From: a virus
Virus record (IMG/VR): IMGVR_UViG_3300029996_000144
Reading direction: 5' to 3' (one strand)
Length of the DNA stretch: 36,590 bases
Within the stretch, counting starts at the first letter, position 1. Every line of letters begins with the position of its first letter. Shown in pieces: positions 1-36,590 of the stretch. The position numbers were made by a program, and so were the translations under genes. The notes below the pieces were generated by a model. The model had not been told where the DNA came from. It saw only the letters and a list, made by a program, of their open reading frames with translations, and did not search any database.

Positions 1-193
1 AGCTGAGGGTGAAGGCGAACCCGTCGAGGCAGCAGCCGAGGGCGAAGGCGAACCCGTCGAGGCAGCAGCTGAGGGTGAAGGCGAACCCGTCGAGGCAGCA
101 GCCGAGGGCGAAGGCGAACCCGTCGAGGCAGCAGCTGAGGGTGGAGGCGAACCCGTCGAGGCAGCAGCCGAGGGTGGAGGCGAGAACATCGAG
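1..193 (+). repeat. Coding 33-bp tandem repeat (partial unit + 5 units). Each unit encodes AAAEGEGEPVE. The last two units are degenerate (AAAEGGGEPVE, AAAEGGGENIE). It is the continuation of the array at the window end.
   Basis: Direct reading: unit gcagcagc(c/t)gagggYgaaggcgaacccgtcgag is repeated head-to-tail in frame 2 with no stop codon. Confidence 0.9.
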
Positions 194-1543
194 GCATCTC
201 AGGGGCGCCGCGCAATGCCGGCAGGTATGGCGTGGCATGAACACAATATCAAACCACAATCAACAATTTCAACGATGAACAAAACGTACAAAGAACTGAT
301 CTGTGACCGTGAGTTCCAGAATCGGTTGGAGGCGGTGAATGCGGCGTTCCGTAGTGGGAGCACCGTTATGGACAACACGCCGGAGAACGTCGAGACGATG
401 CAGATTCTTGCTTCGTCCATGCTTGCTGACGAGCGTATGGTCATTCTGGCCAGCGCTTGCAACTTCACGAACGGAGTGACGCATGAGCGCAAAAACGGTC
501 TGTATATGCTCGTAGAGTGCGCGGCCGGTGGTGCGGCTGCGGCTACGCTGACCGCGGCCGATCTGGGCGTCATCAAATGGATGTCGCTGTTCTTGGAGAA
601 GCTGCTCCCGAACAACACGTTCATGCGTTCGATCCGCTTCGTGCCCATGTCGGATCGTGAAGGCGCGATCTACATCGAGAGCGGAATCAATCCGGCGACG
701 TACACTGGTGCGGTAACTCCGGTTAACGCGCCGAAGTACTTCTACGACGACGTGAAGCGGACGATCGCGCGTCAAGTGTTCTCGATCCAGCCGATCACGT
801 TCCAGAACGCCGACATGGCTATTTTGGCCTACGACAAGCAGTCGTGGGGTTGGACGACTGCGATGGATTCGCTGATGTCGGATGTTTGCACCTACATTTT
901 GCAGGTGGTTGCCAACACGGCCGGCATTTCGAAAATCCCCACCACCGGATCGTCGTTCCCGTCGAGCGGCCTTTTCCCGATCGAGGCTCCGAGCTCGGCA
1001 GTCACGATCAAAGGTGTGGTCGCCGACGACATCATCATGACGGAGGGCGCCTTCCTGTTGCAGAACTACACGCTGAACAACCGCAAGGTCGAAATTGTCC
1101 TTCCGGCTAACCTCTACACGAAGCTGGCCACCGATGCGACGTTCAAGACCTTGCTGACGCCTCACCTCTCTGGTTCGGTCGGCAGCGGCTTCGAGTATTC
1201 GGGCTCGCGCATCACGGCTCGTAACCCCGTGGCTCGCTACAACCTCACCTCGGCGGCCGCAGAGCTCGATCCGGCGATGTACGCCGACGGCACGGTGGCC
1301 AACGACGGCAAGATCACCGACGTATCGCCCGCATCGACCACTGCGAAGCATGTCGGAGCTGGTGTGGCCTTCGTCGAGGGCGAGGTCATTGCCGGTGTTG
1401 GTACGATCGATGTTATCGTAATGCCCGATCCGCAGAACTACGGATACACGATGTCTGGCTGGATGTCGACCGGTGCGACGGTAGCTCGTTCGAACGGTGT
1501 AGGCGCTGCGCTCATCGTTCCTACCGAGGAAGCAGGCGCGTAG
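1..1543 (+). CDS. C-terminal part of the wrap-around ORF: Ala/Glu/Pro repeat linker followed by a putative HK97-fold major capsid protein domain (in-frame Met at 215). It continues from 35896..36590.
   Basis: Frame 2 is open from nt 2 to the stop at 1541-1543 and is contiguous in frame with the ORF running off the window end. The capsid call rests on about 440 aa size and position (after the protease, before the tail genes). Confidence 0.55.
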   Translation, partial: AEGEGEPVEAAAEGEGEPVEAAAEGEGEPVEAAAEGEGEPVEAAAEGGGEPVEAAAEGGGENIEASQGRRAMPAGMAWHEHNIKPQSTISTMNKTYKELICDREFQNRLEAVNAAFRSGSTVMDNTPENVETMQILASSMLADERMVILASACNFTNGVTHERKNGLYMLVECAAGGAAAATLTAADLGVIKWMSLFLEKLLPNNTFMRSIRFVPMSDREGAIYIESGINPATYTGAVTPVNAPKYFYDDVKRTIARQVFSIQPITFQNADMAILAYDKQSWGWTTAMDSLMSDVCTYILQVVANTAGISKIPTTGSSFPSSGLFPIEAPSSAVTIKGVVADDIIMTEGAFLLQNYTLNNRKVEIVLPANLYTKLATDATFKTLLTPHLSGSVGSGFEYSGSRITARNPVARYNLTSAAAELDPAMYADGTVANDGKITDVSPASTTAKHVGAGVAFVEGEVIAGVGTIDVIVMPDPQNYGYTMSGWMSTGATVARSNGVGAALIVPTEEAGA

Positions 1544-1608
1544 TGTAACTTTATGACCGTGGAGGTGGGGAGGGAAGACACCTTCACGGTCATAATAAAC
1601 AAAACAAG

Positions 1609-2028: not shown

Positions 2029-3228
2029 ATGGCAAGAACAGGAATTAATATCAACATCTCCAATACGGTATTGGCCCCTCCTGCATCGGTCAATTCCAAC
2101 TCGATGCTGATCGTCGTCGGTGCGAAGGCAACATCTGCTAGCCCCGGTACGGTCGCTTTCGAGCTGGACATGCCGTATAAGCTGACCTCGGCCAATGATT
2201 TGGCCAGCTACGGGATCACGGAGGCGAACAACAAGGACTTGTACGAGCAGGTCAACGACTTCTACCAGCCGAAGGCCTACGTGAACAACTCCGGTACGAT
2301 ACTGTGGATTGTCGGTCTGGCGGACTACACCAGCAAGATCGAAGATAAGCTGCCCTTGTGGGTGAAGTACACCACGGTGGGCGGCAACGAGTATCGGCCG
2401 CGTCAGATTCTCATTTCGAACGACCCGACGAAGATGACGTCGGCGCCAGACGTGACCAAACTCCAAGCCGCGGTTATGAAAATGTACGCGCAAGCGTTTT
2501 CCACGTGCATCATCACGGACGTCGGCGTTATCACCGGCGATATCTCCGAGTTGGAGGATTTGTCCACGAAAGCGTCAGGTATGGTGGGCGTCGTGACGTT
2601 CACCAAGCGTCAGGGCAGTCGTGCGGCCGTCGGGGCTGTCGGCGGTTGGGTCTCGACGCTTTCGGTAGGTACGTCGATGGGCGACGGGTCGTTGTCGGCA
2701 TTCGGCACCGATCTGTTTTTCGTAGACGGAGCGGTAAGTGGCTCGACGGTTACTTGGGCCAACTCTCCTTGCGCTTCGGCGTCCCAGGCGACGATCGACG
2801 CTCTGTCGGACAAGCAGTATATCTTCCCGATCTCGCGGCCGCCCGAGAACGGTTTGTGGATCAACGACGGCTCTACGGCCGAAGATTCCAGCACGGCTTT
2901 GTGTACGATCGAAGCTGCGCGTACTATCGCGTCCGTCGTCGATGATCTGCGTGCATTCTTTAACAAGTACCTCAATACGAAAATCCCGACTTCGAAGTCT
3001 GGGGACATCCAGTCGACGTTCAAGCAGGTCATGCTCGATGCAGCGCGTGCATCGGTCATTCAGCCGTACATCGACAGCGGGGACATCTCTGACGCGACGA
3101 TCCAGATCGTCGCAAAGAACAACGACATGCAGGGTACTCGTACTTTGGAGGTTACGTTGGGAATCCAGCAGGCGATCACTCTCCGCTGGGTAGAAGGTTT
3201 CGTTTTCTATGTAAAAAGCGTAGAGTAG
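2029..3228 (+). CDS. Putative contractile tail sheath protein (P2 FI-like size).
   Basis: 399 aa, immediately followed by a 158-aa gene, a frameshifting chaperone pair and the tape measure. This is the canonical myovirus order. The call rests on synteny and size only. Confidence 0.45.
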   Translation: MARTGININISNTVLAPPASVNSNSMLIVVGAKATSASPGTVAFELDMPYKLTSANDLASYGITEANNKDLYEQVNDFYQPKAYVNNSGTILWIVGLADYTSKIEDKLPLWVKYTTVGGNEYRPRQILISNDPTKMTSAPDVTKLQAAVMKMYAQAFSTCIITDVGVITGDISELEDLSTKASGMVGVVTFTKRQGSRAAVGAVGGWVSTLSVGTSMGDGSLSAFGTDLFFVDGAVSGSTVTWANSPCASASQATIDALSDKQYIFPISRPPENGLWINDGSTAEDSSTALCTIEAARTIASVVDDLRAFFNKYLNTKIPTSKSGDIQSTFKQVMLDAARASVIQPYIDSGDISDATIQIVAKNNDMQGTRTLEVTLGIQQAITLRWVEGFVFYVKSVE

Positions 3229-13825: not shown

Positions 13826-14751
13826 TTTATCGTTTCGAAAATCCGCAGCGCCACCTGCGGGACTATCGCGTTGCCGTAAGCTTTGATCGATCCTTTGCGC
13901 CATGCCGGAAAGGTAATTCCGTCCAGTCCGGCGGAAAGCCCATCATCTGGGCCACATATCGGGGATTCAGTCGGAAACCCTTCCCAATTCGAGACGGATG
14001 CGAAATCATGACGTCGTGGACGACTCTGCTCTTCCGCTTGGCTTGACTGGGTGGAAGATTGGAATTTATAGCATCGTTGACCGTCGGCGTCGACAACAGC
14101 CCCATCCGCGCTGCAAGCGCGAGCGTCGGCCGAGCAGTCGCACCCTTCGACAGGCTCTTGTTCACACGCCCGCTCCCGCAATCCAACGCGACCGGTGTCG
14201 GCAGTAGAGCCGGCGGCAATGGCTCCGAATCGCTCTTGCCATGAACTTTCAGCCCTTGCGTCACCACGGTGGGCAACAAACCATGTTCTGTATCGCAGGT
14301 GGGGGGCACCGACGCCCGCAGCTGGTATAAGGTACGCTTGCACCTCGTATCCCGCCGCTTCCAAATCAGCACACACCTGCTCGAAAACCATTCCCTGCGA
14401 CCAATTAACGATTCCGAGAACATTCTCGCCCACGACCCAGCGCGGTCGAACAGTCCGAACAACTCCGAGCATTGCGGGCCAGAGGTAGCGGTCGTCGGCC
14501 GTACCCTTGCGTTTGCCCGCGAGGCTGAACGGCTGGCACGGGAACCCGCCGGTGAGCACGTCGACGCGATCTCTCCAAACGGTAAAGTCAGTTGTTTTGA
14601 TGTCTCCATATTGTTCCGATTCGGGAAAATGATACTTCAATACGCGCCGGCAGAACGGGTCGATCTCGCAGTTGAAGACGTTCGTCCAGCCGGCCCACGC
14701 GGCCGCCAGGTCGAAGCCGCCGATGCCGCTGAATAGAGAACCGTGCGTCAT
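13807..14751 (-). CDS. DNA (cytosine-5)-methyltransferase, orphan.
   Basis: Motif I FSGIGG, motif IV GFPCQPFS, motif VI ENV, motif X AYGNAIVP. No adjacent endonuclease. Start MTHGSLF at 14751 overlaps the upstream stop (TAATG). Confidence 0.85.
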   Translation of the reverse strand: MTHGSLFSGIGGFDLAAAWAGWTNVFNCEIDPFCRRVLKYHFPESEQYGDIKTTDFTVWRDRVDVLTGGFPCQPFSLAGKRKGTADDRYLWPAMLGVVRTVRPRWVVGENVLGIVNWSQGMVFEQVCADLEAAGYEVQAYLIPAAGVGAPHLRYRTWFVAHRGDARAESSWQERFGAIAAGSTADTGRVGLRERACEQEPVEGCDCSADARACSADGAVVDADGQRCYKFQSSTQSSQAEEQSRPRRHDFASVSNWEGFPTESPICGPDDGLSAGLDGITFPAWRKGSIKAYGNAIVPQVALRIFETINEYEGL

Positions 14752-15344
14752 TAGTACTCCACCGCTGCCCTGCGATCGATGAAGAAATGAATACCCGGTG
14801 CGCATTCGCTCCACCTGTAATCGTCGAAATCCGGAACTTCAACTGTGGCACCGACGGTGTAGACGAAGTTTTTGTCATGGTCGGAACGAACGGTATCCTC
14901 AGTTGCCTTGGTGCCGTCCATGTTCTGAATCTCCATGACGTATGCTTTATCGCAACGGCATTTGTGTCCCGTTGCCGAACTGCGCCGTGCATCTTCCGGA
15001 ATTCGTAATTTTACGATATGCCCAGAGGCTTTTTTCCAACCGATGAAACTACCCTCAGTCGGACATGATAGATAACATCCCTTGGCATCGCGCAGGTCGG
15101 CACCGCACAGGTCGGCACCGCACAGGTTGGCACCGCACAGGTTGGCACCGCGCAGGTTGGCACCGCGCAGGTCGGCACCGCGCAGGTTGGCACCGCGCAG
15201 GTCGGTATCGCGCAGGTCAGCACCGCGCCTAATAGCTTCCAAAACCGTTTCGGTGATTGTGTTTCCCTCTTTCGTGTATTCAAATACGACCGAGCCAGTC
15301 CAACGGTTGCGGATTTCGATTTTAATCTGTTTCGTTGATTCCAT
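14751..15344 (-). CDS. Pentapeptide-repeat protein (8-9 A(D/N)LxG units) with a Cys/His-rich C-terminal domain.
   Basis: [45 protein letters not shown], then C..C..H..H.C.C. Translationally coupled to the methyltransferase gene. Confidence 0.75.
15093..15227. repeat. 9 x 15-bp tandem repeat (caggtYggcaccgcR) encoding the pentapeptide repeats.
   Basis: Direct reading: near-identical 15-mers head-to-tail inside CDS 14751..15344. Confidence 0.9.
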
Positions 15345-25203: not shown

Positions 25204-25678
<475 letters not shown>

Positions 25679-27692: not shown

Positions 27693-29361
27693 CGTTTTTC
27701 TTGTTTTATGGCGCCGATAGCCTCGTGCGCCGGTTATTAATACGTTAAAATGCGATATACGTTCATTCAGCTTAAAATCGGGCTTTGCATCTAAGGATCG
27801 GCCCGCTTACGGGTCGAAATGTTTCGTACCCCTTTCCGATGACAAAGATAAAAGAAATTCCCCGCTTGTCAATAGTTTTTTAATCAATTTTCTTTATACT
27901 TTCTGCGGAAAGTATAAGCGAAACGCTTATTTTGTTCTAAATGTCCTATTTTAGCCGCAAACCTTTGATATACGACGCGAAACTGTTCTAAATACCCCCT
28001 AAAAATTTTTCCATCCCGCGCGACACACCTCGATAAGCCTGCCGCAGACCTTCAAAGGCCCCGATCATGCCGGAAAAGCACCCGAAAACGGCCATTTTGT
28101 TCTAAATAGGAACAAGTCACTTCGAGTCAAATAGCTATAAATCAATAGTTTAAGATAAAAATGTTCAAAACGTGAACAAATTTTTGAAAAATCAATAAGG
28201 CATTTAGGACAAAAAGTGCCCGAAAAACAGCGAAAAAATGGTTATAGCAACAAGGATAAGAAACTGAAAATGTGTTTATTACGAATATTTTGTTGCTATG
28301 GGAAAACTTTCCAAAACTTTTTTGGGATGAATTTTCAAAATGATGAATTTTTGACCCCCGAAAATGTTAGGGGTGTATCTGCTCATAGCAACAAACGGCC
28401 TCTAAATCCTTACAGGTCTGTGCGTTAGGTGTGTTGCTATGAATGTTGCTATGAAATCTTCACGAACAACCGTTTTTTGCTAATATGTTGATATTTAGAT
28501 GCTTAGCTTTAAACAGCTTCCAACGAATGTACAAATGCTTGATTATCAAAATGCTAACTTTTAGATATTATTATAAGCTGCTGAGTATCACTGTTTTCTG
28601 TCGGAGTTCCAATTTTGAACATTTTATGCCTCTCCCGGTTCGGTACGACCGGTCTGATCCGAAACAGCGGAGCGCCGGCGCAGAATACAGGCTAAAAGCA
28701 TAGTCGCAGCGGCGCAATGGCTTGATAATGTGGCGGGTATGCGCTGCTTCGCTCTGTCATGGTCTGCGGCGCCCGAATGGCGCAGCGATTCAATGCGCAG
28801 CGATGCAATGGTGCTGGCCTCAGTGCACCTATCCACACGCGCATGCACGGCGGTATTGATCGTGAGACGCTGGGCCGCTGTTCCATTGCTTCGCTGCTTC
28901 TGTTCACAAAATGAACAGTGTTCCACGTGGAGCAATGGGCCGCTGTTCCATTGCTTCGCTGCTTCTGTTCACAAAATGAACAGTGTTCCACGTGGAGCAA
29001 TGGGCCGCTGTTCCATTGCTTCGCTGCTTCTGTTCACAAAATGAACAGTGTTCCACGTGGAGCAATGGGCCACTGCTCCACTGATTCGCTGCTTCTGTTC
29101 ACAAAATGAACAAAACGAAGGTTCAGTAGGTGAATGAAGCAATGAATCAAAGGGGCAATGACGCAAAGGCGCAGCGAGGCAAAGGTAAACAGGCGGCAGG
29201 GGGTCTGGCGCTGACCAGCATCTTTGAGCCATTTTAACTTTGAAAAAATTCGGGATGGAAAAATTCGGGATGGAAAAATTTGAGAAAATTCAGAATTCCG
29301 ACGAAAAGAACATAAAAAAACGACATTTAGAACAATATTCGATGGAAAAACATTTGGCAAG
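27693..29361. promoter_or_regulatory. 1.67-kb AT-rich non-coding control region between the divergent early and late arms; candidate origin/operator/packaging region.
   Basis: No credible ORF. It contains TTGTTCTAAAT(G/A) x4, TGTTCA-N5-TGAACA x5, GTTGCTATG x5, 65-bp tandem repeats and several perfect palindromes. Confidence 0.6.
28871..29120. repeat. About 3.8 x 65-bp tandem repeat. Each unit contains nested inverted repeats (CCATTGCT...AGCAATGG and TGTTCA-caaaa-TGAACA).
   Basis: Unit starts at 28871, 28936, 29001 and 29066. The first three are identical and the fourth is diverged. Confidence 0.9.
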
Positions 29362-29384
29362 TTGGAAAAGTTTTTTTATATTTG
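29353..29384 (+). promoter_or_regulatory. Bacteroidota-type sigma-A promoter candidate: -33 TTTG (29353-56), 20-nt spacer, -7 TATATTTG (29377-84).
   Basis: Exact match to the TTTG / TAnnTTTG consensus, about 15 nt upstream of the ATG at 29399. An inverted TTGTTCTAAATG site lies 20 nt upstream. Confidence 0.4.
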
Positions 29385-29613: not shown

Positions 29614-31041
29614 ATGCCGCTTACGACCGCCATAAGTTTAACCGCCAAGCAGAAGGAGGCATTGGAGCTTCTGGATTCACCGACGCAGGACAAGCTCCTG
29701 CTGCTCGGTGGTTCGGGCTCGGGCAAGACGTTCGTTCTTATATATAAGGCAATTCGGGATGCGCTGCGGTTCAAGGCGCCGGTCTTGGTCTGTCGGAACA
29801 TGTTCGTCGATCTGCGGCAGGGTGTGATGGACCAGATCGTGCCGGCAATTTTACAGAAAATTGCTGAGGCGAATGGTCAGGAACGCTGGGACAAGTGGCT
29901 GATCGATGATCTGCGTTTCGCCACGTGGTCCGACCAGCATTCGCGGCTGTCGTTCTGTACGGGCGGCTACCTCCGTTTCGCAGGTCTGTCGAAGCGCGAC
30001 ATTTCGGAGAGCGGGTTGGACAAGCTCCTGTCGCCGTCGTGGCTTCACATTTTGGTTGAAGAGGTGTCGGAGGTCGAGTACCCGCCGGTCGAGATGCTCA
30101 TTACTCGACTGAGGTACAAGGCCGAGGGATGTACGGGCAAGCTGATGATGTCGGAGAACCCGCCGTCGATGATGCACTGGTCCTACCGCCGCTTCTACGA
30201 GGCGAAGCATGAGGACGGGTCGCCGCTGTCGCATGAGGAGAAGCGGCAGCAGGCGTACCTGCTGATGAACCCGCGGGACAATCGGGAGAACCTGTCGGAC
30301 GAGTACATTCGCAACCTTTCGCAGCTAACTGGTGCGAACCGAAAGCGGTTCTACGAGGGGCAGTTCCAAGACAGCGAGACGGGTGAGATATTCAAGCGGA
30401 TCAGCTGGACGGACCGGCTGCCGATGCCGGAGGAGTGGGAGAAGCTAGTGATCTACACGGACCCGACGCCGCTCACGGGCAAGGACTACTCGGTGTACGC
30501 CGACTACAAGGCATCCGTTCTGTGTGGTCTGTGGAATCATCTGACATTTGTCATCGACGTCCGGTTGGTACGGGGGTCGACGCTGGACATGCTTCAAAAT
30601 GTGAAGCAGCTGTGGGACATATCCCCGAACCAGTCGATCACGGAGGTCTGCATGGAGAAAAAGCAGGTGCCGTCGGACTTCAAGCAGGTGCTTGAACAGT
30701 TCACCTATCTGACGGGCTGGTCATGTACGGTGAAGCTGGACACGCGGATATTCGGGGACAAGAAAGCGGCGATCGAAACATTTTTGCAGCCTCTGTTCGA
30801 GAACGACTTGATTCTGTTCAACAGTGCTTTTCGGGACACGGAGCGGGGGCGGCTGACGCAATATCAGGTGTTGAAGTTCTCGCGTAAGGCGAACAAGCGC
30901 ATCCACGACGACGTTTTGGACGCAATCATGCGGGCGGACACGCTGATGAAGGGGCGCAAGGGCCGCAAGCGGCGGTCGAAGCATACGCAGCTGGTTCAGC
31001 TGGTGCGCCCCGGGTACATATTCGACAGCAGGAATGGATAA
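29614..31041 (+). CDS. terL: Terminase large subunit.
   Basis: Walker A LLLGGSGSGKTF, Walker B ILVEEVSE, C-terminal RNaseH-like nuclease acidic residues (IYTDPT, HDDVLDAI). Confidence 0.85.
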   Translation: MPLTTAISLTAKQKEALELLDSPTQDKLLLLGGSGSGKTFVLIYKAIRDALRFKAPVLVCRNMFVDLRQGVMDQIVPAILQKIAEANGQERWDKWLIDDLRFATWSDQHSRLSFCTGGYLRFAGLSKRDISESGLDKLLSPSWLHILVEEVSEVEYPPVEMLITRLRYKAEGCTGKLMMSENPPSMMHWSYRRFYEAKHEDGSPLSHEEKRQQAYLLMNPRDNRENLSDEYIRNLSQLTGANRKRFYEGQFQDSETGEIFKRISWTDRLPMPEEWEKLVIYTDPTPLTGKDYSVYADYKASVLCGLWNHLTFVIDVRLVRGSTLDMLQNVKQLWDISPNQSITEVCMEKKQVPSDFKQVLEQFTYLTGWSCTVKLDTRIFGDKKAAIETFLQPLFENDLILFNSAFRDTERGRLTQYQVLKFSRKANKRIHDDVLDAIMRADTLMKGRKGRKRRSKHTQLVQLVRPGYIFDSRNG

Positions 31042-33660: not shown

Positions 33661-34995
33661 ATGTTTCGCAACCCGTATAACATAATGAATTTCCACGGCG
33701 TACCTGGGGCTCGCATTCAGGCGTTGCCTCAGAACTACCACTTCGACCTCACGATGGAAACGTGGTGGAGCGCCGTTCAACGTGCGAGGGTCTACTCCGA
33801 CTTCACAGGTCTGGATGCGCTGTACAGCTACCTGCTGAAAAGCAGCACGCTGATCCGGTCGGCCGTCGACAAGCGTTTGCGGCCGTTGAAGTCGAGGACG
33901 TTCGCCGTCATTATCGACGGTCGGGAGGACGAGCGCCTGACGGGCAAGCTGCGCCAGTCTGCATTAGTCCGTGAGCTGATCTACCAGAAGGGCATGGCGA
34001 ACTTCACTTTCGCCCGTGTCATCGGTGTGAATCGGGACGGCACTACCTACATCTACCCGCTTCGGAACCTTGACGTGGTGAACCGTGCGGTTCGTCGTAT
34101 GACCTACGAAATTCAGGACCCGATTCCGGTCAAGTCCCATGTGAACTTGTTCTGGATGCAAAGCTCGTTCCATACGGAGGACACGTTAGGTCTGTTGGAG
34201 CCGGTAGCCCGTGACTACATCAACATGCAGAACGCTCAGAACAATTGGCAGACTGCATCCCAGTTCCTGGCCTACCAGCAGATGGTTATGTACTTCGAAA
34301 ACGGAGACGAGGAAATGGAGCGGGCAGCGACCGAGGCGGCTCAGAACGTAGGCCTCGGCAAAGTCATCGTGTCCGGCAAGTCGACCGACGAGGTGACGGG
34401 CAAGATCACCAAAGACTTGGAGCTGGAAAACATCTACGGAGGTGCGTCGGCCGATACGTTCCGTATCTTCAAAGAGAATATCGAGCAGCTGCGGGGGTTG
34501 ATCATGCAGCTCATTTTGGGTTCATCCCTGCTTGGTATGTCGGAGAAAAACACCAATTCGGAGCGTCTGGTCCGTGCTCACCTTAAACTGTTCCGAGACA
34601 TTACCGAGAGCGACGCGATCGATGTTCAGGACTGGTTCAATATTCCGGAGAACCGGACGAAGCTGTCGTACCTGCTGAACGAACCTGCGTTGGAGCGTGC
34701 GGAGTTCAGAGTGAAGCCGTCGAACTATGTCGACATCGGCGATGTGGACGTATACACGAAGATGTTGAAAGACTTGGGGTTGAAGCCCACCGTCTCGTTT
34801 GTCGAGAAAGTAGGGCTCAGCGCCGAAGATGTGATTATCGATGAAGTCGTTGAGAACACTGGCGAGGGAGGCGAAGGAGCTGAACCGGTACCTCAGAACA
34901 GGAATGCCAAAAGAGGTATCGCAGGCATGGCTGTGGACTTCGCAAAACGCATTCTTAACCGGCACAAATCCGGCGACGGGCCAACGATGGCCTGA
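33661..34995 (+). CDS. Putative portal protein.
   Basis: 444 aa with an acidic C-terminal tail. It sits between terL and the protease-capsid gene. Call from size and synteny. Confidence 0.5.
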   Translation: MFRNPYNIMNFHGVPGARIQALPQNYHFDLTMETWWSAVQRARVYSDFTGLDALYSYLLKSSTLIRSAVDKRLRPLKSRTFAVIIDGREDERLTGKLRQSALVRELIYQKGMANFTFARVIGVNRDGTTYIYPLRNLDVVNRAVRRMTYEIQDPIPVKSHVNLFWMQSSFHTEDTLGLLEPVARDYINMQNAQNNWQTASQFLAYQQMVMYFENGDEEMERAATEAAQNVGLGKVIVSGKSTDEVTGKITKDLELENIYGGASADTFRIFKENIEQLRGLIMQLILGSSLLGMSEKNTNSERLVRAHLKLFRDITESDAIDVQDWFNIPENRTKLSYLLNEPALERAEFRVKPSNYVDIGDVDVYTKMLKDLGLKPTVSFVEKVGLSAEDVIIDEVVENTGEGGEGAEPVPQNRNAKRGIAGMAVDFAKRILNRHKSGDGPTMA

Positions 34996-35362: not shown

Positions 35363-35899
35363 ATGGTAGGGTATCTGAGTGAAGCGATAGCAGAGGCGAT
35401 TCGTACATGGCCGGCGTTGAAGGACATGAACGTCGTTCCTATTCGGGCCACCGGTGGTACGACGGTTCTTGAAAACACGCCGCTGCCGGCTGTCGCAGTA
35501 CATGTCTCAGGACACGACGGCCGTGGGAACACGTTTTTCGGAGGCGGCATCCGGTTGTATTTCGACGTGGAGCTGTACTACATGCTGCCGATTACGAACT
35601 ACACGTTTTCGAGAGACGGCGGCCACCAAGCTCAGATGCTCGATCTGTCCGAAGAGGTGATACGCTGCATGGAGCAAAGCAGTGTTTTCGACAATATCCG
35701 GCATGAACATGACCTTGTGCTGCAATTCGACCGGATGGACACGGAAACCACCTATGGTACGCAGGGCTCGACGTCGGTAGTCGTCGACCTCCACAAGATA
35801 GTTTACAACGGCTCAGTTGCTTTCGATCCGAAGGACACCCGATTCAGCTGGGCTACGGTGAACGATGTAAGTGTAATGCCAGATTATAAGAGAAAATGA
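35363..35899 (+). CDS. Hypothetical protein (178 aa).
   Basis: ATGA overlap with the downstream protease ORF. Confidence 0.4.
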   Translation: MVGYLSEAIAEAIRTWPALKDMNVVPIRATGGTTVLENTPLPAVAVHVSGHDGRGNTFFGGGIRLYFDVELYYMLPITNYTFSRDGGHQAQMLDLSEEVIRCMEQSSVFDNIRHEHDLVLQFDRMDTETTYGTQGSTSVVVDLHKIVYNGSVAFDPKDTRFSWATVNDVSVMPDYKRK

Positions 35900-36590
35900 G
35901 AATTTCGAAGAGAAAACAGATGTTGACGACTGGGATCGTCGACTTGAACAACAACCAGATCGATGTAGATGCTATCGACTGGTCGATGTTCGACCGTAAC
36001 CCCGTCCTTCGATACGACCGTAAAAACGAAGGCCACAAGGGTGTCGTCATCGGAAAAGTGATCGAGCGCGAGCGGGTCGGCAACGGGTTCGCTGGACGGC
36101 TGGTGTTCATGGAGCGTTTCGAAGACGCGGACATCGCTTTCGAAAAGTACGATCAAGGCGTCCTGACCTATGTTTCGATCGGTGGGTACGGTCTCGGTCA
36201 GGAGAACGAGGACGGCGTATTCGTCTGCGAGAAGTATGTGCCGCGTGAAGTGTCGCTTGTCGCCTTCCCTGCGAACATGGAGTGCCATCCGATTAACGAG
36301 AGCGAGGTGACGGCTTCGGAGAAGCGGGTCATCGATCAGCTCAAAGTAACCGGATCAGAGGTTCGCTACCTCTCGATGTCTACTGGTATGCCCTACGACA
36401 CGTATATGGGGCAGATCGAGGCGGCAGCTGAGGGTGAAGGCGAACCCGTCGAGGCGGCAGCTGAGGGTGAAGGCGAACCCGTCGAGGCGGCAGCTGAGGG
36501 TGAAGGCGAACCCGTCGAGGCAGCAGCCGAGGGCGAAGGCGAACCCGTCGAGGCAGCAGCTGAGGGTGAAGGCGAACCCGTCGAGGCAGC
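35896..36590 (+). CDS. N-terminal part of the wrap-around ORF: HK97-type prohead protease (peptidase S78) domain followed by an AAAEGEGEPVE repeat linker. It continues at 1..1543.
   Basis: REVSLVAFPANMECHP matches the S78 'E-S-V..PAN' block. GHKGVV and LTYVSIGGYG fit the catalytic His/Ser blocks. No stop before the window end, and the frame is continuous with nt 2 onward. Confidence 0.7.
   Translation, partial: MRISKRKQMLTTGIVDLNNNQIDVDAIDWSMFDRNPVLRYDRKNEGHKGVVIGKVIERERVGNGFAGRLVFMERFEDADIAFEKYDQGVLTYVSIGGYGLGQENEDGVFVCEKYVPREVSLVAFPANMECHPINESEVTASEKRVIDQLKVTGSEVRYLSMSTGMPYDTYMGQIEAAAEGEGEPVEAAAEGEGEPVEAAAEGEGEPVEAAAEGEGEPVEAAAEGEGEPVEA
36421..36590 (+). repeat. Coding 33-bp tandem repeat, 5 units plus a partial unit, contiguous with 1..193 across the circular junction.
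   Basis: Direct reading. Confidence 0.9.
36492..36590. repeat. 99-bp exact duplicate of nt 1-99 (terminal overlap of a circular contig).
   Basis: Character-by-character identity of 36492-36590 with 1-99. Confidence 0.85.

What the first reader, a model, noticed from the sequence alone, without database searches (positions are those of the whole stretch)
35896..36590. One ORF across the genome junction fuses prohead protease, an 8-11 x AAAEGEGEPVE repeat linker and the capsid-sized domain
Seen directly: frame 1 from the ATG at 35896 runs off the window end and, joined to nt 1, continues in frame 2 without a stop to 1543. The ORF is continuous whether or not the 99-nt terminal overlap is trimmed, because 99 nt is 33 codons. 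The N-terminal part carries S78/HK97 protease blocks, and the 33-bp repeats encode a low-complexity Ala/Glu/Pro linker. Protease-scaffold fusions (Mu I/Z) and scaffold-capsid fusions (HK97 delta domain) are established. A single protease-linker-capsid polypeptide with a VNTR-like spacer is less usual. It suggests the repeat acts as a disposable scaffold/tether whose copy number could vary between isolates.
Basis: partly seen in the sequence, partly recalled or inferred. Interest (0 to 1): 0.6.

Follow-up and report, generated by a model that had tools for sequence, protein, structure and literature searches.

The report
Phage protease–capsid fusion, variable repeat linker
One gene of an uncultivated gut phage, cut in two by the assembler inside a 33-bp repeat, encodes the head protease, an acidic repeat spacer and the capsid protein as a single chain. 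This design is already known in other phages; here the repeat number varies between isolates and the capsid part probably also has its own internal start.

Summary
The window ends overlap by 99 nt inside a 33-bp tandem array. One ORF runs from ATG 35896 across the junction to the stop at 1541-1543: 712 aa with 8 units if the overlap is trimmed, 745 aa with 11 if not. An independent contig carries the same gene internally, with 8 units.

Structure prediction and fold search show an N-terminal prohead protease of the T4 gp21/herpesvirus type and a C-terminal HK97-fold capsid protein. About 90 helical, delta/scaffold-like residues lie between the linker and the capsid fold.

The fusion is conserved across a broad, syntenic lineage. 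It is not unusual in kind: Nocturne116 ORF18 (PDB 9SZ9), the PAJU2 capsid polyprotein and the actinophage "major capsid and protease fusion" have the same plan.

Two points are new:
- The linker is a hypervariable acidic repeat site. Close relatives carry 2-13 copies, and sister clades carry different repeat families at the same place.
- A conserved in-frame ATG at 275-277 sits behind the most A-rich, least structured stretch of the gene, with strongly biased synonymous sites, in all clades examined. This suggests separate translation of a 422-aa scaffold-capsid product. That is inferred, not shown.

Verdict: a variant of a known kind, of moderate interest.

The parts
35896..36590 (+). 5' part of the fused head polyprotein ORF. 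It runs off the window end. ATG 35896 overlaps the stop of the upstream ORF 35363-35899.
   Evidence: start conserved in the sister clade
1..1543 (+). 3' part of the same ORF (frame 2), ending at TAG 1541-1543. Nt 1-99 duplicate 36492-36590 (assembler overlap).
   Evidence: identical internal gene in L001
35896..36315 (+). Prohead serine protease domain (residues 1-140). Candidate catalytic Ser94 lies in VSIGG. His47 lies in the loop that carries the canonical His. The EVSLVAFPAN motif is conserved.
   Evidence: AF2 pLDDT 87.4; Foldseek top hits T4 gp21 5jbl, prob 1.0, TM 0.55-0.58, then herpesvirus proteases; S94/E118/S120 invariant in 90 relatives; 60 of 90 relatives hit Pfam Peptidase_S78
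36316..36417 (+). Post-protease segment (residues 141-174), mostly low-confidence or disordered, with a conserved E(V/I)RY(L/V) strand
36418..36590 (+). 33-bp tandem array, upstream half (5.2 units), encoding EAAAEGEGEPV
1..190 (+). 33-bp tandem array, downstream half; the last two units are variants (GGGEPV, GGGENI)
191..274 (+). Conserved post-repeat motif (R-x-[ML]-P-x-G-M-[AT]-W-H-E). The A-rich, structure-free tract at about 241-274 follows it and resembles gene-start leaders of this genome.
275..277 (+). Conserved in-frame ATG (codon 291 of the 712-aa ORF): candidate internal start of a 422-aa scaffold-capsid product (MNKTYKEL...)
   Evidence: a gene caller chose the homologous ATG in L014
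275..553 (+). Helical delta/scaffold-like segment (helices at residues 25-113 of the 442-aa model)
   Evidence: Foldseek alignments to 270-370-aa capsid chains span about 340 columns, fewer than the 442 query residues; the core shared with distant relatives starts near profile position 300
602..1540 (+). HK97-fold major capsid protein core. Long hairpin at residues 180-197 and 26-residue helix at 208-233 of the model, read here as E-loop and spine helix.
   Evidence: AF2 pLDDT 84.8; Foldseek PDB 339 hits and BFVD 257 hits at E<=1e-3, all capsid proteins among the listed matches
1551..1595 (+). 17-bp stem-loop immediately after the capsid stop codon. No U-tract follows, so it is a possible terminator, attenuator or mRNA stabiliser.
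   Evidence: fold -29.5 kcal/mol, z = -6.9

Best explanation
The window is a circularly closed genome of about 36.5 kb from an uncultivated myovirus-like phage. It has a large terminase, a Mu-type portal and a DUF2586 sheath-like protein. The assembler opened the circle inside a 33-bp coding tandem repeat.

Across the junction lies one gene for a head-assembly polyprotein. Its parts, in order, are:
- a prohead serine protease of the HK97 gp4 / T4 gp21 kind;
- a disordered, strongly acidic tandem-repeat linker;
- a helical delta/scaffold-like segment of about 90 residues;
- an HK97-fold major capsid protein.

Shown here: ORF continuity, both folds, conservation of the fusion and its gene neighbourhood across a wide lineage, and repeat-number and repeat-type polymorphism.

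Inferred from established HK97, T4 and Nocturne116 biology: the N-terminal extension faces the procapsid interior. The flexible linker lets the tethered protease reach its sites. After shell assembly the protease removes itself, the linker and the delta-like segment. The fragments leave and the shell matures.

Inferred from sequence signals only (my estimate about 0.55): the capsid part is also translated alone from the conserved ATG at 275. The locus would then work as a nested gene pair, like lambda C/Nu3 or Mu I/Z. Only a fraction of subunits would carry the protease.

The repeat most likely persists as a length-tolerant disposable spacer that expands and contracts by slippage or recombination. 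Its constant property across clades is net negative charge.
For: ORF and overlap. Independent internal copy.

Homologues: 215 hits, the 118 full-length ones all fused, with lengths in steps of 11 aa in the close clade.

Distant relatives: a profile search of 1.84 billion representatives found about 55 relatives of 600-905 aa that match in two stretches, protease plus capsid core, separated by a charged middle region of 50-470 aa. Three of them were fetched and show the same order: portal, small genes, fusion, small gene, DUF2586.

Capsid fold. Protease fold. S78 link. Conserved Ser94, Glu118, Ser120.

Repeat families at the same site in different clades: AAAEG[EG]GEPVE x2-13, NASAEPEPEPV, NASEETQ[AT]EET x10, DPEPN[NS] x4-15, AERLE x7, NASEEEQTEEV.

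Internal start at ATG 275:
- Upstream 25 nt have A = 0.48 and GC = 0.36, against at most 0.32 A at the other 24 internal ATGs.
- MFE of -30..+20 is -0.3 kcal/mol, against -9.3 to -21.4 for the others and -2.4/-2.7 for the gene's own start.
- The 12 upstream codons have GC3 0.08-0.33, against 0.71 gene-wide, and A3 0.50-0.58, against 0.12. This holds in six GC-rich loci from three clades; in the AT-rich L009 clade GC3 is not exceptional.
- In the eight loci tested, from three clades, the most A-rich 25-mer of the ORF lies at or within about 35 nt upstream of that ATG.
- In the 21-kb plus-strand block, 9 of the 10 other tracts with A >= 0.56 directly precede ORF starts.
- Relatives at 25-31% identity show the same signal at the homologous Met.
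- A Met lies within a few residues of that position in 16 of 17 relatives P0121-P0139.

Experimental precedent for the architecture: Nocturne116 ORF18, with the mature capsid N-terminus at residue 243 (PMC13595954).
Against: - There are no expression, proteomic or virion data for this phage. Cleavage sites and the mature N-terminus are unknown.
- The window protein itself has no Pfam hit.
- In the MAFFT alignment the canonical His column holds Arg in this clade. The conserved His47 lies 5 residues later in the same loop. No model coordinates were available to check His-Ser geometry.
- The A-rich tract could instead be a rare-codon pause at a domain boundary, or a relic of an ancestral intergenic leader.
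- The host is unknown. A scan of GTDB species genomes found no prophage. The Bacteroidota-type reading of the leaders rests on the apparent lack of Shine-Dalgarno motifs at 12 called gene starts (read by eye) and on one non-significant promoter-like match.
- Part of the copy-number spread may be assembly collapse. All six Logan (lgn-source) assemblies of the close clade show 2 units. Several contigs break or carry N-gaps in the array.
Confidence: 0.8

Rival explanations
1. Obligate polyprotein. Every capsid subunit is made only as the full-length protease-linker-scaffold-capsid chain (1:1 protease to capsid). There is no internal initiation. The A-rich tract is a translational pause, a flexible-linker coding bias or an evolutionary relic.
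For: This is the simplest reading of a single ORF and of what Nocturne116 ORF18 shows. The peptide before Met291 is rich in N/K/Q/T/I, as linkers often are. I found no direct evidence of internal initiation.
Against: Synonymous third positions, not only amino acids, are shifted to A (A3 0.50-0.58 against 0.12). The Met is conserved down to 25% identity. The context matches genuine gene starts of this genome in A-content and lack of structure. A gene caller picked the homologous ATG over two upstream in-frame ATGs in L014.
Confidence: 0.35
2. Assembly artefact. The fusion exists only because the assembler joined a protease gene and a capsid gene through a collapsed repeat.
For: The window is broken inside the array. 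Three IMG/VR contigs also end in it and one scaffold has an N-gap there. The lgn-source assemblies of the close clade all give the minimum copy number.
Against: Many independent assemblies from different samples and pipelines have the gene internal and uninterrupted. These include a near-identical copy and distant relatives with non-repetitive middle regions.
Confidence: 0.02
3. Pseudo-protease. The N-terminal domain has lost catalysis and serves only as a scaffold or core domain. Maturation would use another protease, or none.
For: The canonical His column is Arg in this clade. There is no Pfam S78 hit for the window protein.
Against: Ser94, Glu118 and Ser120 are invariant across 90 relatives, and His47 is invariant in the clade within the same loop. 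An alternative gap placement makes His47 equivalent to the canonical His. No other protease was found among the 20 larger window ORFs scanned.
Confidence: 0.08
4. The acidic repeat has a selected function of its own, and copy number tunes it. It might be a polyanionic space-filler or DNA mimic inside the procapsid, a source of acidic internal peptides, or a variable region that evades host sensors of head proteins.
For: Net negative charge is kept in every repeat family, although the units differ. The middle regions of distant relatives are also acid-rich, with Asp+Glu about 0.2-0.3. Repeats arose repeatedly at the same site.
Against: Copy number ranges 2-13 within near-identical phages, and unit length differs (5, 6, 11 residues). 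That fits a weakly constrained spacer. There is no functional evidence.
Confidence: 0.2

Closest known systems
Lactococcus phage Nocturne116 ORF18 (PDB 9SZ9/9SZA; PMC13595954, PMC8306868)
   Same: A single ORF with an N-terminal prohead protease, a central scaffolding segment and a C-terminal HK97-fold capsid protein. The mature capsid protein starts after cleavage at the scaffold/capsid junction. My protease profile matches residues 90-229 of the deposited 516-aa chain (E = 3.8e-5).
   Different: There is no detectable sequence similarity in the capsid part. Nocturne116 is a small prolate siphovirus of a Gram-positive host. The passages I read describe neither a tandem-repeat linker nor an internal start. 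Its ORF is 516 aa, against 712 aa here.
[quoted passage not shown]
   Same: Protease and major capsid protein are encoded as one polypeptide, annotated routinely. PHROG 4523 is even named 'major head and protease protein' and gives a weak hit here.
   Different: The PHROG 617 and 4523 hits cover only the N-terminal protease/scaffold part, so the capsid domain belongs to a different sequence family. Those phages are mostly small siphoviruses; this one has a sheath-like gene and a Mu-type portal.
HK97 gp4 protease plus gp5 capsid protein with delta domain
   Same: The same kinds of parts: a herpesvirus-like serine protease, an N-terminal helical assembly domain on the capsid protein, and the HK97 fold. 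The maturation logic is presumably the same.
   Different: In HK97 the protease is a separate gene product recruited non-covalently. Here it is covalently tethered through a repeat linker.
Nested in-frame head genes: lambda C/Nu3 and Mu I/Z (my own knowledge)
   Same: The long product carries the protease. A shorter C-terminal product is made in excess from an internal in-frame start. 17 of 90 protease relatives also hit Pfam Mu-like_Pro, and the portal is Mu-type.
   Different: In lambda and Mu the nested product is the scaffold only, and the capsid gene is separate. Here the putative nested product is scaffold plus capsid, and initiation would be Shine-Dalgarno-independent. The nesting is inferred, not demonstrated.

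Membership tests
Protease-scaffold-capsid fusion polyproteins (Nocturne116 ORF18 type) | One uninterrupted ORF spanning the protease and the major capsid protein | tested here: met
Protease-scaffold-capsid fusion polyproteins (Nocturne116 ORF18 type) | N-terminal domain with a prohead-protease fold | tested here: met
   AF2 pLDDT 87.4; T4 gp21 5jbl is the top hit (prob 1.0, TM 0.55-0.58), then herpesvirus assemblins. Foldseek E-values are marginal (3.5e-3).
Protease-scaffold-capsid fusion polyproteins (Nocturne116 ORF18 type) | C-terminal HK97-fold capsid domain | tested here: met
Protease-scaffold-capsid fusion polyproteins (Nocturne116 ORF18 type) | Central scaffolding segment | tested here: inconclusive
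   About 90 predicted helical residues lie before the HK97 core. Distant relatives have charged, Ala/Glu/Lys-rich, scaffold-like middle regions. Scaffolding function was not tested.
Protease-scaffold-capsid fusion polyproteins (Nocturne116 ORF18 type) | Autoproteolytic release of the mature capsid protein | not testable with these tools
   Needs virion N-terminal mapping or recombinant processing assays.
Pfam Peptidase_S78 (PF04586) | Score above the Pfam gathering threshold | tested here: not met
   No hit for the window protein or its 175-aa domain. Fused relatives score 18.7-19.4 bits against a cutoff of 21. 60 of 90 aligned relatives hit at E <= 0.01, best 6.5e-15.
Pfam Peptidase_S78 (PF04586) | Catalytic Ser in the S-[IV]-G motif | tested here: met
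   Ser94 in VSIGG is invariant in 90 sequences.
Pfam Peptidase_S78 (PF04586) | Catalytic His at the canonical position | tested here: inconclusive
   The canonical column holds Arg42. The clade-invariant His47 lies in the same loop. No coordinates were available to check geometry.
HK97-fold major capsid proteins | Match to a sequence family model (Pfam or PHROG capsid families) | tested here: not met
   There is no Pfam or PHROG hit on the C-terminal domain, either in the window protein or in the 10 relatives scanned. A PDB profile search gave only low-complexity noise.
HK97-fold major capsid proteins | Fold with long E-loop hairpin, spine helix, and P and A domains | tested here: met
   DSSP shows a hairpin at 180-197 and a helix at 208-233. 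339 PDB and 257 BFVD capsid matches at E <= 1e-3.
Nested in-frame head-assembly genes (lambda C/Nu3, Mu I/Z) | Functional internal in-frame start producing a C-terminal product | tested here: inconclusive
   Strong, conserved start-like sequence signals at ATG 275. No expression data.
Mu-like head module | Mu-type portal, gpI-type protease-scaffold and gpT-type capsid protein | tested here: not met
   The portal hits PF06074. Mu-like_Pro appears only in stand-alone relatives. No Pfam family, including the gpT capsid family, matched the capsid domain.

The most novel reading that the evidence does not exclude
The 'fusion' is really an operon folded into one reading frame. Protease, spacer/scaffold and capsid are translated as a set of nested products from Shine-Dalgarno-independent internal starts. 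One such start is conserved throughout the lineage. A weaker second one follows the protease in distant relatives.

In this reading the acidic repeat site is under diversifying or tuning selection. It could set the reach or timing of the tethered protease, or help the phage escape host defence systems that sense head-assembly proteins.
Probability: 0.12. Interest if true: 0.7.

Novelty: new variant of a known kind. Interest (0 to 1): 0.4.

Why it matters
- It is a compact natural head-assembly system: one gene supplies protease, spacer, assembly domain and shell.
- It offers a directly testable case of internal translation initiation without a Shine-Dalgarno sequence.
- The repeat array is a natural strain marker for a widespread gut phage lineage.
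- The array is also a practical trap. It breaks assemblies, splits the capsid gene across contig ends, and creates N-gaps and truncated 'stand-alone' capsid calls (L011-L014). It also leaves the capsid gene annotated only as 'prohead serine protease' (P0070).
- The capsid domain has no Pfam or PHROG model, so this lineage's capsid gene is missed by routine annotation.

Tried and rejected
- Direct Pfam scan of the fused protein gave only a spurious sub-threshold TraH hit.
- A PDB sequence-profile search with the capsid alignment returned only charged low-complexity matches such as CFAP46 and RPN2, so it was uninformative.
- A tblastn of the capsid part against 50,697 phage records found one unannotated faecal phage at 33% identity. 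No cultured relative exists in that collection.
- The scan of GTDB species genomes for a prophage or host found nothing.
- P0122 looked like a stand-alone capsid gene, which would have argued against an obligate fusion. It is an artefact of an N-gap inside the repeat array of a scaffold.
- The Bacteroides-type promoter motif TTTG-N(18-22)-TAnnTTTG occurs once, at 29353-29384, which is a sensible place. It is not significant: 18 of 100 shuffles do as well.
- A look-up of the 140-aa protein downstream of the poly-A tract found no exact copy on record.
- His-Ser geometry could not be measured because model coordinates are not exposed.

Full report
**1. Observation**

The window ends share an exact 99-nt overlap; 33 nt also match. 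The overlap lies inside a 33-bp tandem array that Tandem Repeats Finder reports at 36416-36587 and 1-183.

The ORF starts at ATG 35896, which overlaps the stop of the upstream ORF (ATGA). It runs off the end and continues from nt 2 to TAG 1541-1543. Its length depends on how the overlap is treated:

| Trimming | Length | Repeat units |
|---|---|---|
| none | 745 aa | 11 |
| 33 nt | 734 aa | 10 |
| 99 nt | 712 aa | 8 |

Locus L001 is an independent ENA contig of 22.7 kb. It carries the gene fully inside the contig, differs at 2 of 2115 nt, and has the same 8-unit order as the 99-nt-trimmed window. The split is an assembler cut of a circular genome, and 8 units is the best-supported number.

**2. 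Context**

- The + strand carries a large terminase (29614-31041) and a Mu-type portal (33661-34995, PF06074). Two small ORFs follow, then the fused gene, a 137-aa ORF and a DUF2586 sheath-like protein at 2029-3228.
- The - strand carries family-A DNA polymerase, VapE-like and SNF2-like genes.
- No cultured relative exists in the phage collection. The single hit is a human-faecal contig at 33% identity.
- No prophage was found in GTDB species genomes.

**3. Domains**

The whole protein gives no meaningful Pfam hit. PHROG hits are weak and fall on families named 'major head protein', 'major head and protease protein' and 'head maturation protease'.

*C-terminal domain.* The AlphaFold2 model of the 442 C-terminal residues has pLDDT 84.8. 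It shows a helical stretch (helices within residues 25-113), a long hairpin at 180-197 and a 26-residue helix at 208-233, which I read as E-loop and spine helix. Foldseek finds 339 PDB matches and 257 BFVD matches at E <= 1e-3. All listed matches are capsid proteins, or an encapsulin shell.

*N-terminal domain.* The model of the first 175 residues has pLDDT 87.4. Its top PDB hits are the T4 gp21 prohead protease (prob 1.0, TM 0.55-0.58, rmsd 3.6-4.0 Å), followed by herpesvirus assemblins.

*Conserved residues.* In an alignment of 90 relatives, Ser94, Glu118 and Ser120 are invariant. The canonical His column holds Arg in this clade. An invariant His47 lies five residues later in the same loop. 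Whether it is equivalent cannot be settled without coordinates.

*Link to Peptidase_S78.* 60 of the 90 relatives hit Pfam Peptidase_S78 and 17 hit Mu-like_Pro. The window protein itself hits neither.

**4. Family**

A word-indexed search returned 215 homologues. The 120 best are listed, and all full-length ones are fused.

A profile search of 1.84 billion representatives found about 55 distant members of 600-905 aa. They match in two stretches, protease and capsid core, separated by a charged middle region of 50-470 aa that looks like a scaffold. Three distant members were fetched. All show the same gene order: portal, small genes, fusion, small gene, DUF2586.

The fusion is therefore an old, conserved trait of the lineage.

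**5. The repeat**

In the close clade, protein lengths differ in steps of 11 aa, which corresponds to 2-13 units. The order of Glu- and Gly-type units also differs between contigs. Simple assembly collapse cannot create that.

Sister clades carry other repeats at the same site:
- NASAEPEPEPV
- NASEETQ[AT]EET, up to 10 copies
- DPEPN[NS], 4-15 copies
- AERLE, 7 copies
- NASEEEQTEEV

All of these are net acidic.

Caveats on copy number:
- All six Logan (lgn-source) assemblies of the close clade show the minimum of 2 units.
- Three IMG/VR contigs end inside the array.
- One scaffold has an N-gap there.

Some of the counts are therefore assembly-limited.

**6. A conserved internal start signal**

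The ORF has 27 in-frame ATGs. Only codon 291 (nt 275-277) has a context like real gene starts of this genome.

| Measure | ATG 275 | Comparison |
|---|---|---|
| A fraction, upstream 25 nt | 0.48 | at most 0.32 at the other 24 internal ATGs |
| GC fraction, upstream 25 nt | 0.36 | at least 0.40 at the other 24 internal ATGs |
| MFE of -30..+20 | -0.3 kcal/mol | -9.3 to -21.4 at the others; -2.4/-2.7 at the gene's own start |
| GC3 of 12 upstream codons | 0.08-0.33 | 0.71 gene-wide |
| A3 of 12 upstream codons | 0.50-0.58 | 0.12 gene-wide |

The codon figures hold in six GC-rich loci from three clades, so the signal sits at synonymous sites as well as in the amino acids. In the AT-rich L009 clade the GC3 value is not exceptional.

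Further points:
- In the eight loci tested, from three clades, the most A-rich 25-mer of the ORF lies at or within about 35 nt upstream of this ATG.
- In the 21-kb plus-strand block, 9 of the 10 other tracts with A >= 0.56 directly precede ORF starts.
- Relatives at 25-31% identity show the same signal at the homologous Met. They also show a weaker one just after the protease.
- A Met lies within a few residues of that position in 16 of 17 relatives P0121-P0139.
- In scaffold L014, where the array is interrupted by Ns, the gene caller chose exactly this ATG over two upstream in-frame ATGs.
- Adenine at -3 and low mRNA structure are known positive determinants of initiation in Bacteroidetes, which lack Shine-Dalgarno use (PMC6847099).

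I infer, with probability about 0.55, that a 422-aa scaffold-capsid product is also made on its own.

**7. Comparison with what is known**

- Nocturne116 ORF18 is described as an N-terminal prohead protease, a central scaffolding domain and a C-terminal capsid protein. The mature N-terminus is at residue 243 (PMC13595954). My protease profile matches its deposited chain 9sz9.
- The PAJU2 capsid polyprotein is cited as a protease-capsid fusion (PMC8306868).

The architecture is therefore known. The differences here are:
- a capsid sequence family without any Pfam or PHROG model;
- a myovirus-like, Mu-portal context;
- the hypervariable acidic repeat linker;
- the inferred nested start.

**8. 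Verdict**

This is a new variant of a known kind, of moderate interest. Its main value lies in the repeat polymorphism, the testable internal-start hypothesis and the annotation pitfalls.

Noticed in passing
window 25626-25676: A run of 51 T on the + strand, which is A51 on the - strand. It fills the gap between two - strand ORFs and ends directly at the ATG of ORF 25204-25626. It could be an extreme A-rich leader, a slippage-prone homopolymer or a sequencing artefact.
   Followed up: partly
window 28871-29112 (also 29139-29185 and 29244-29280): A 65-bp unit repeated 3.7 times (97% matches), plus shorter 15-16-bp repeats, in the AT-richer region between the - strand and + strand gene blocks. 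These may be origin iterons or regulatory repeats.
   Followed up: no
window 15084-15228: A 15-bp unit repeated 9.7 times inside the - strand ORF 14751-15344, which hits Pfam Pentapeptide repeats and DUF5758. This is a second coding tandem repeat in the genome.
   Followed up: partly
window 1551-1595: A strong 17-bp stem-loop (-29.5 kcal/mol, z = -6.9) directly after the capsid stop codon, with no U-tract. The next gene's A-rich leader follows it.
   Followed up: partly
window 29353-29384: The only full match to a Bacteroides-type promoter pattern (TTTG-N20-TATATTTG), just upstream of the first + strand ORFs. It is not statistically significant but is sensibly placed. Together with leaders that look free of Shine-Dalgarno motifs and rich in A, it hints at a Bacteroidota host.
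   Followed up: partly
L015 3001-5256, L016 3001-5067, L017 3001-5127: Distant fused relatives have a second, weaker start-like Met just after the protease domain (M170, M159, M156). This suggests up to three nested products. The window clade lacks this site.
   Followed up: partly
L011, L012, L013 (contig ends) and L014 3724-3823: Other public contigs of this lineage end inside the repeat array or carry an N-gap in it. This yields truncated or 'stand-alone' capsid gene calls such as P0122.
   Followed up: yes
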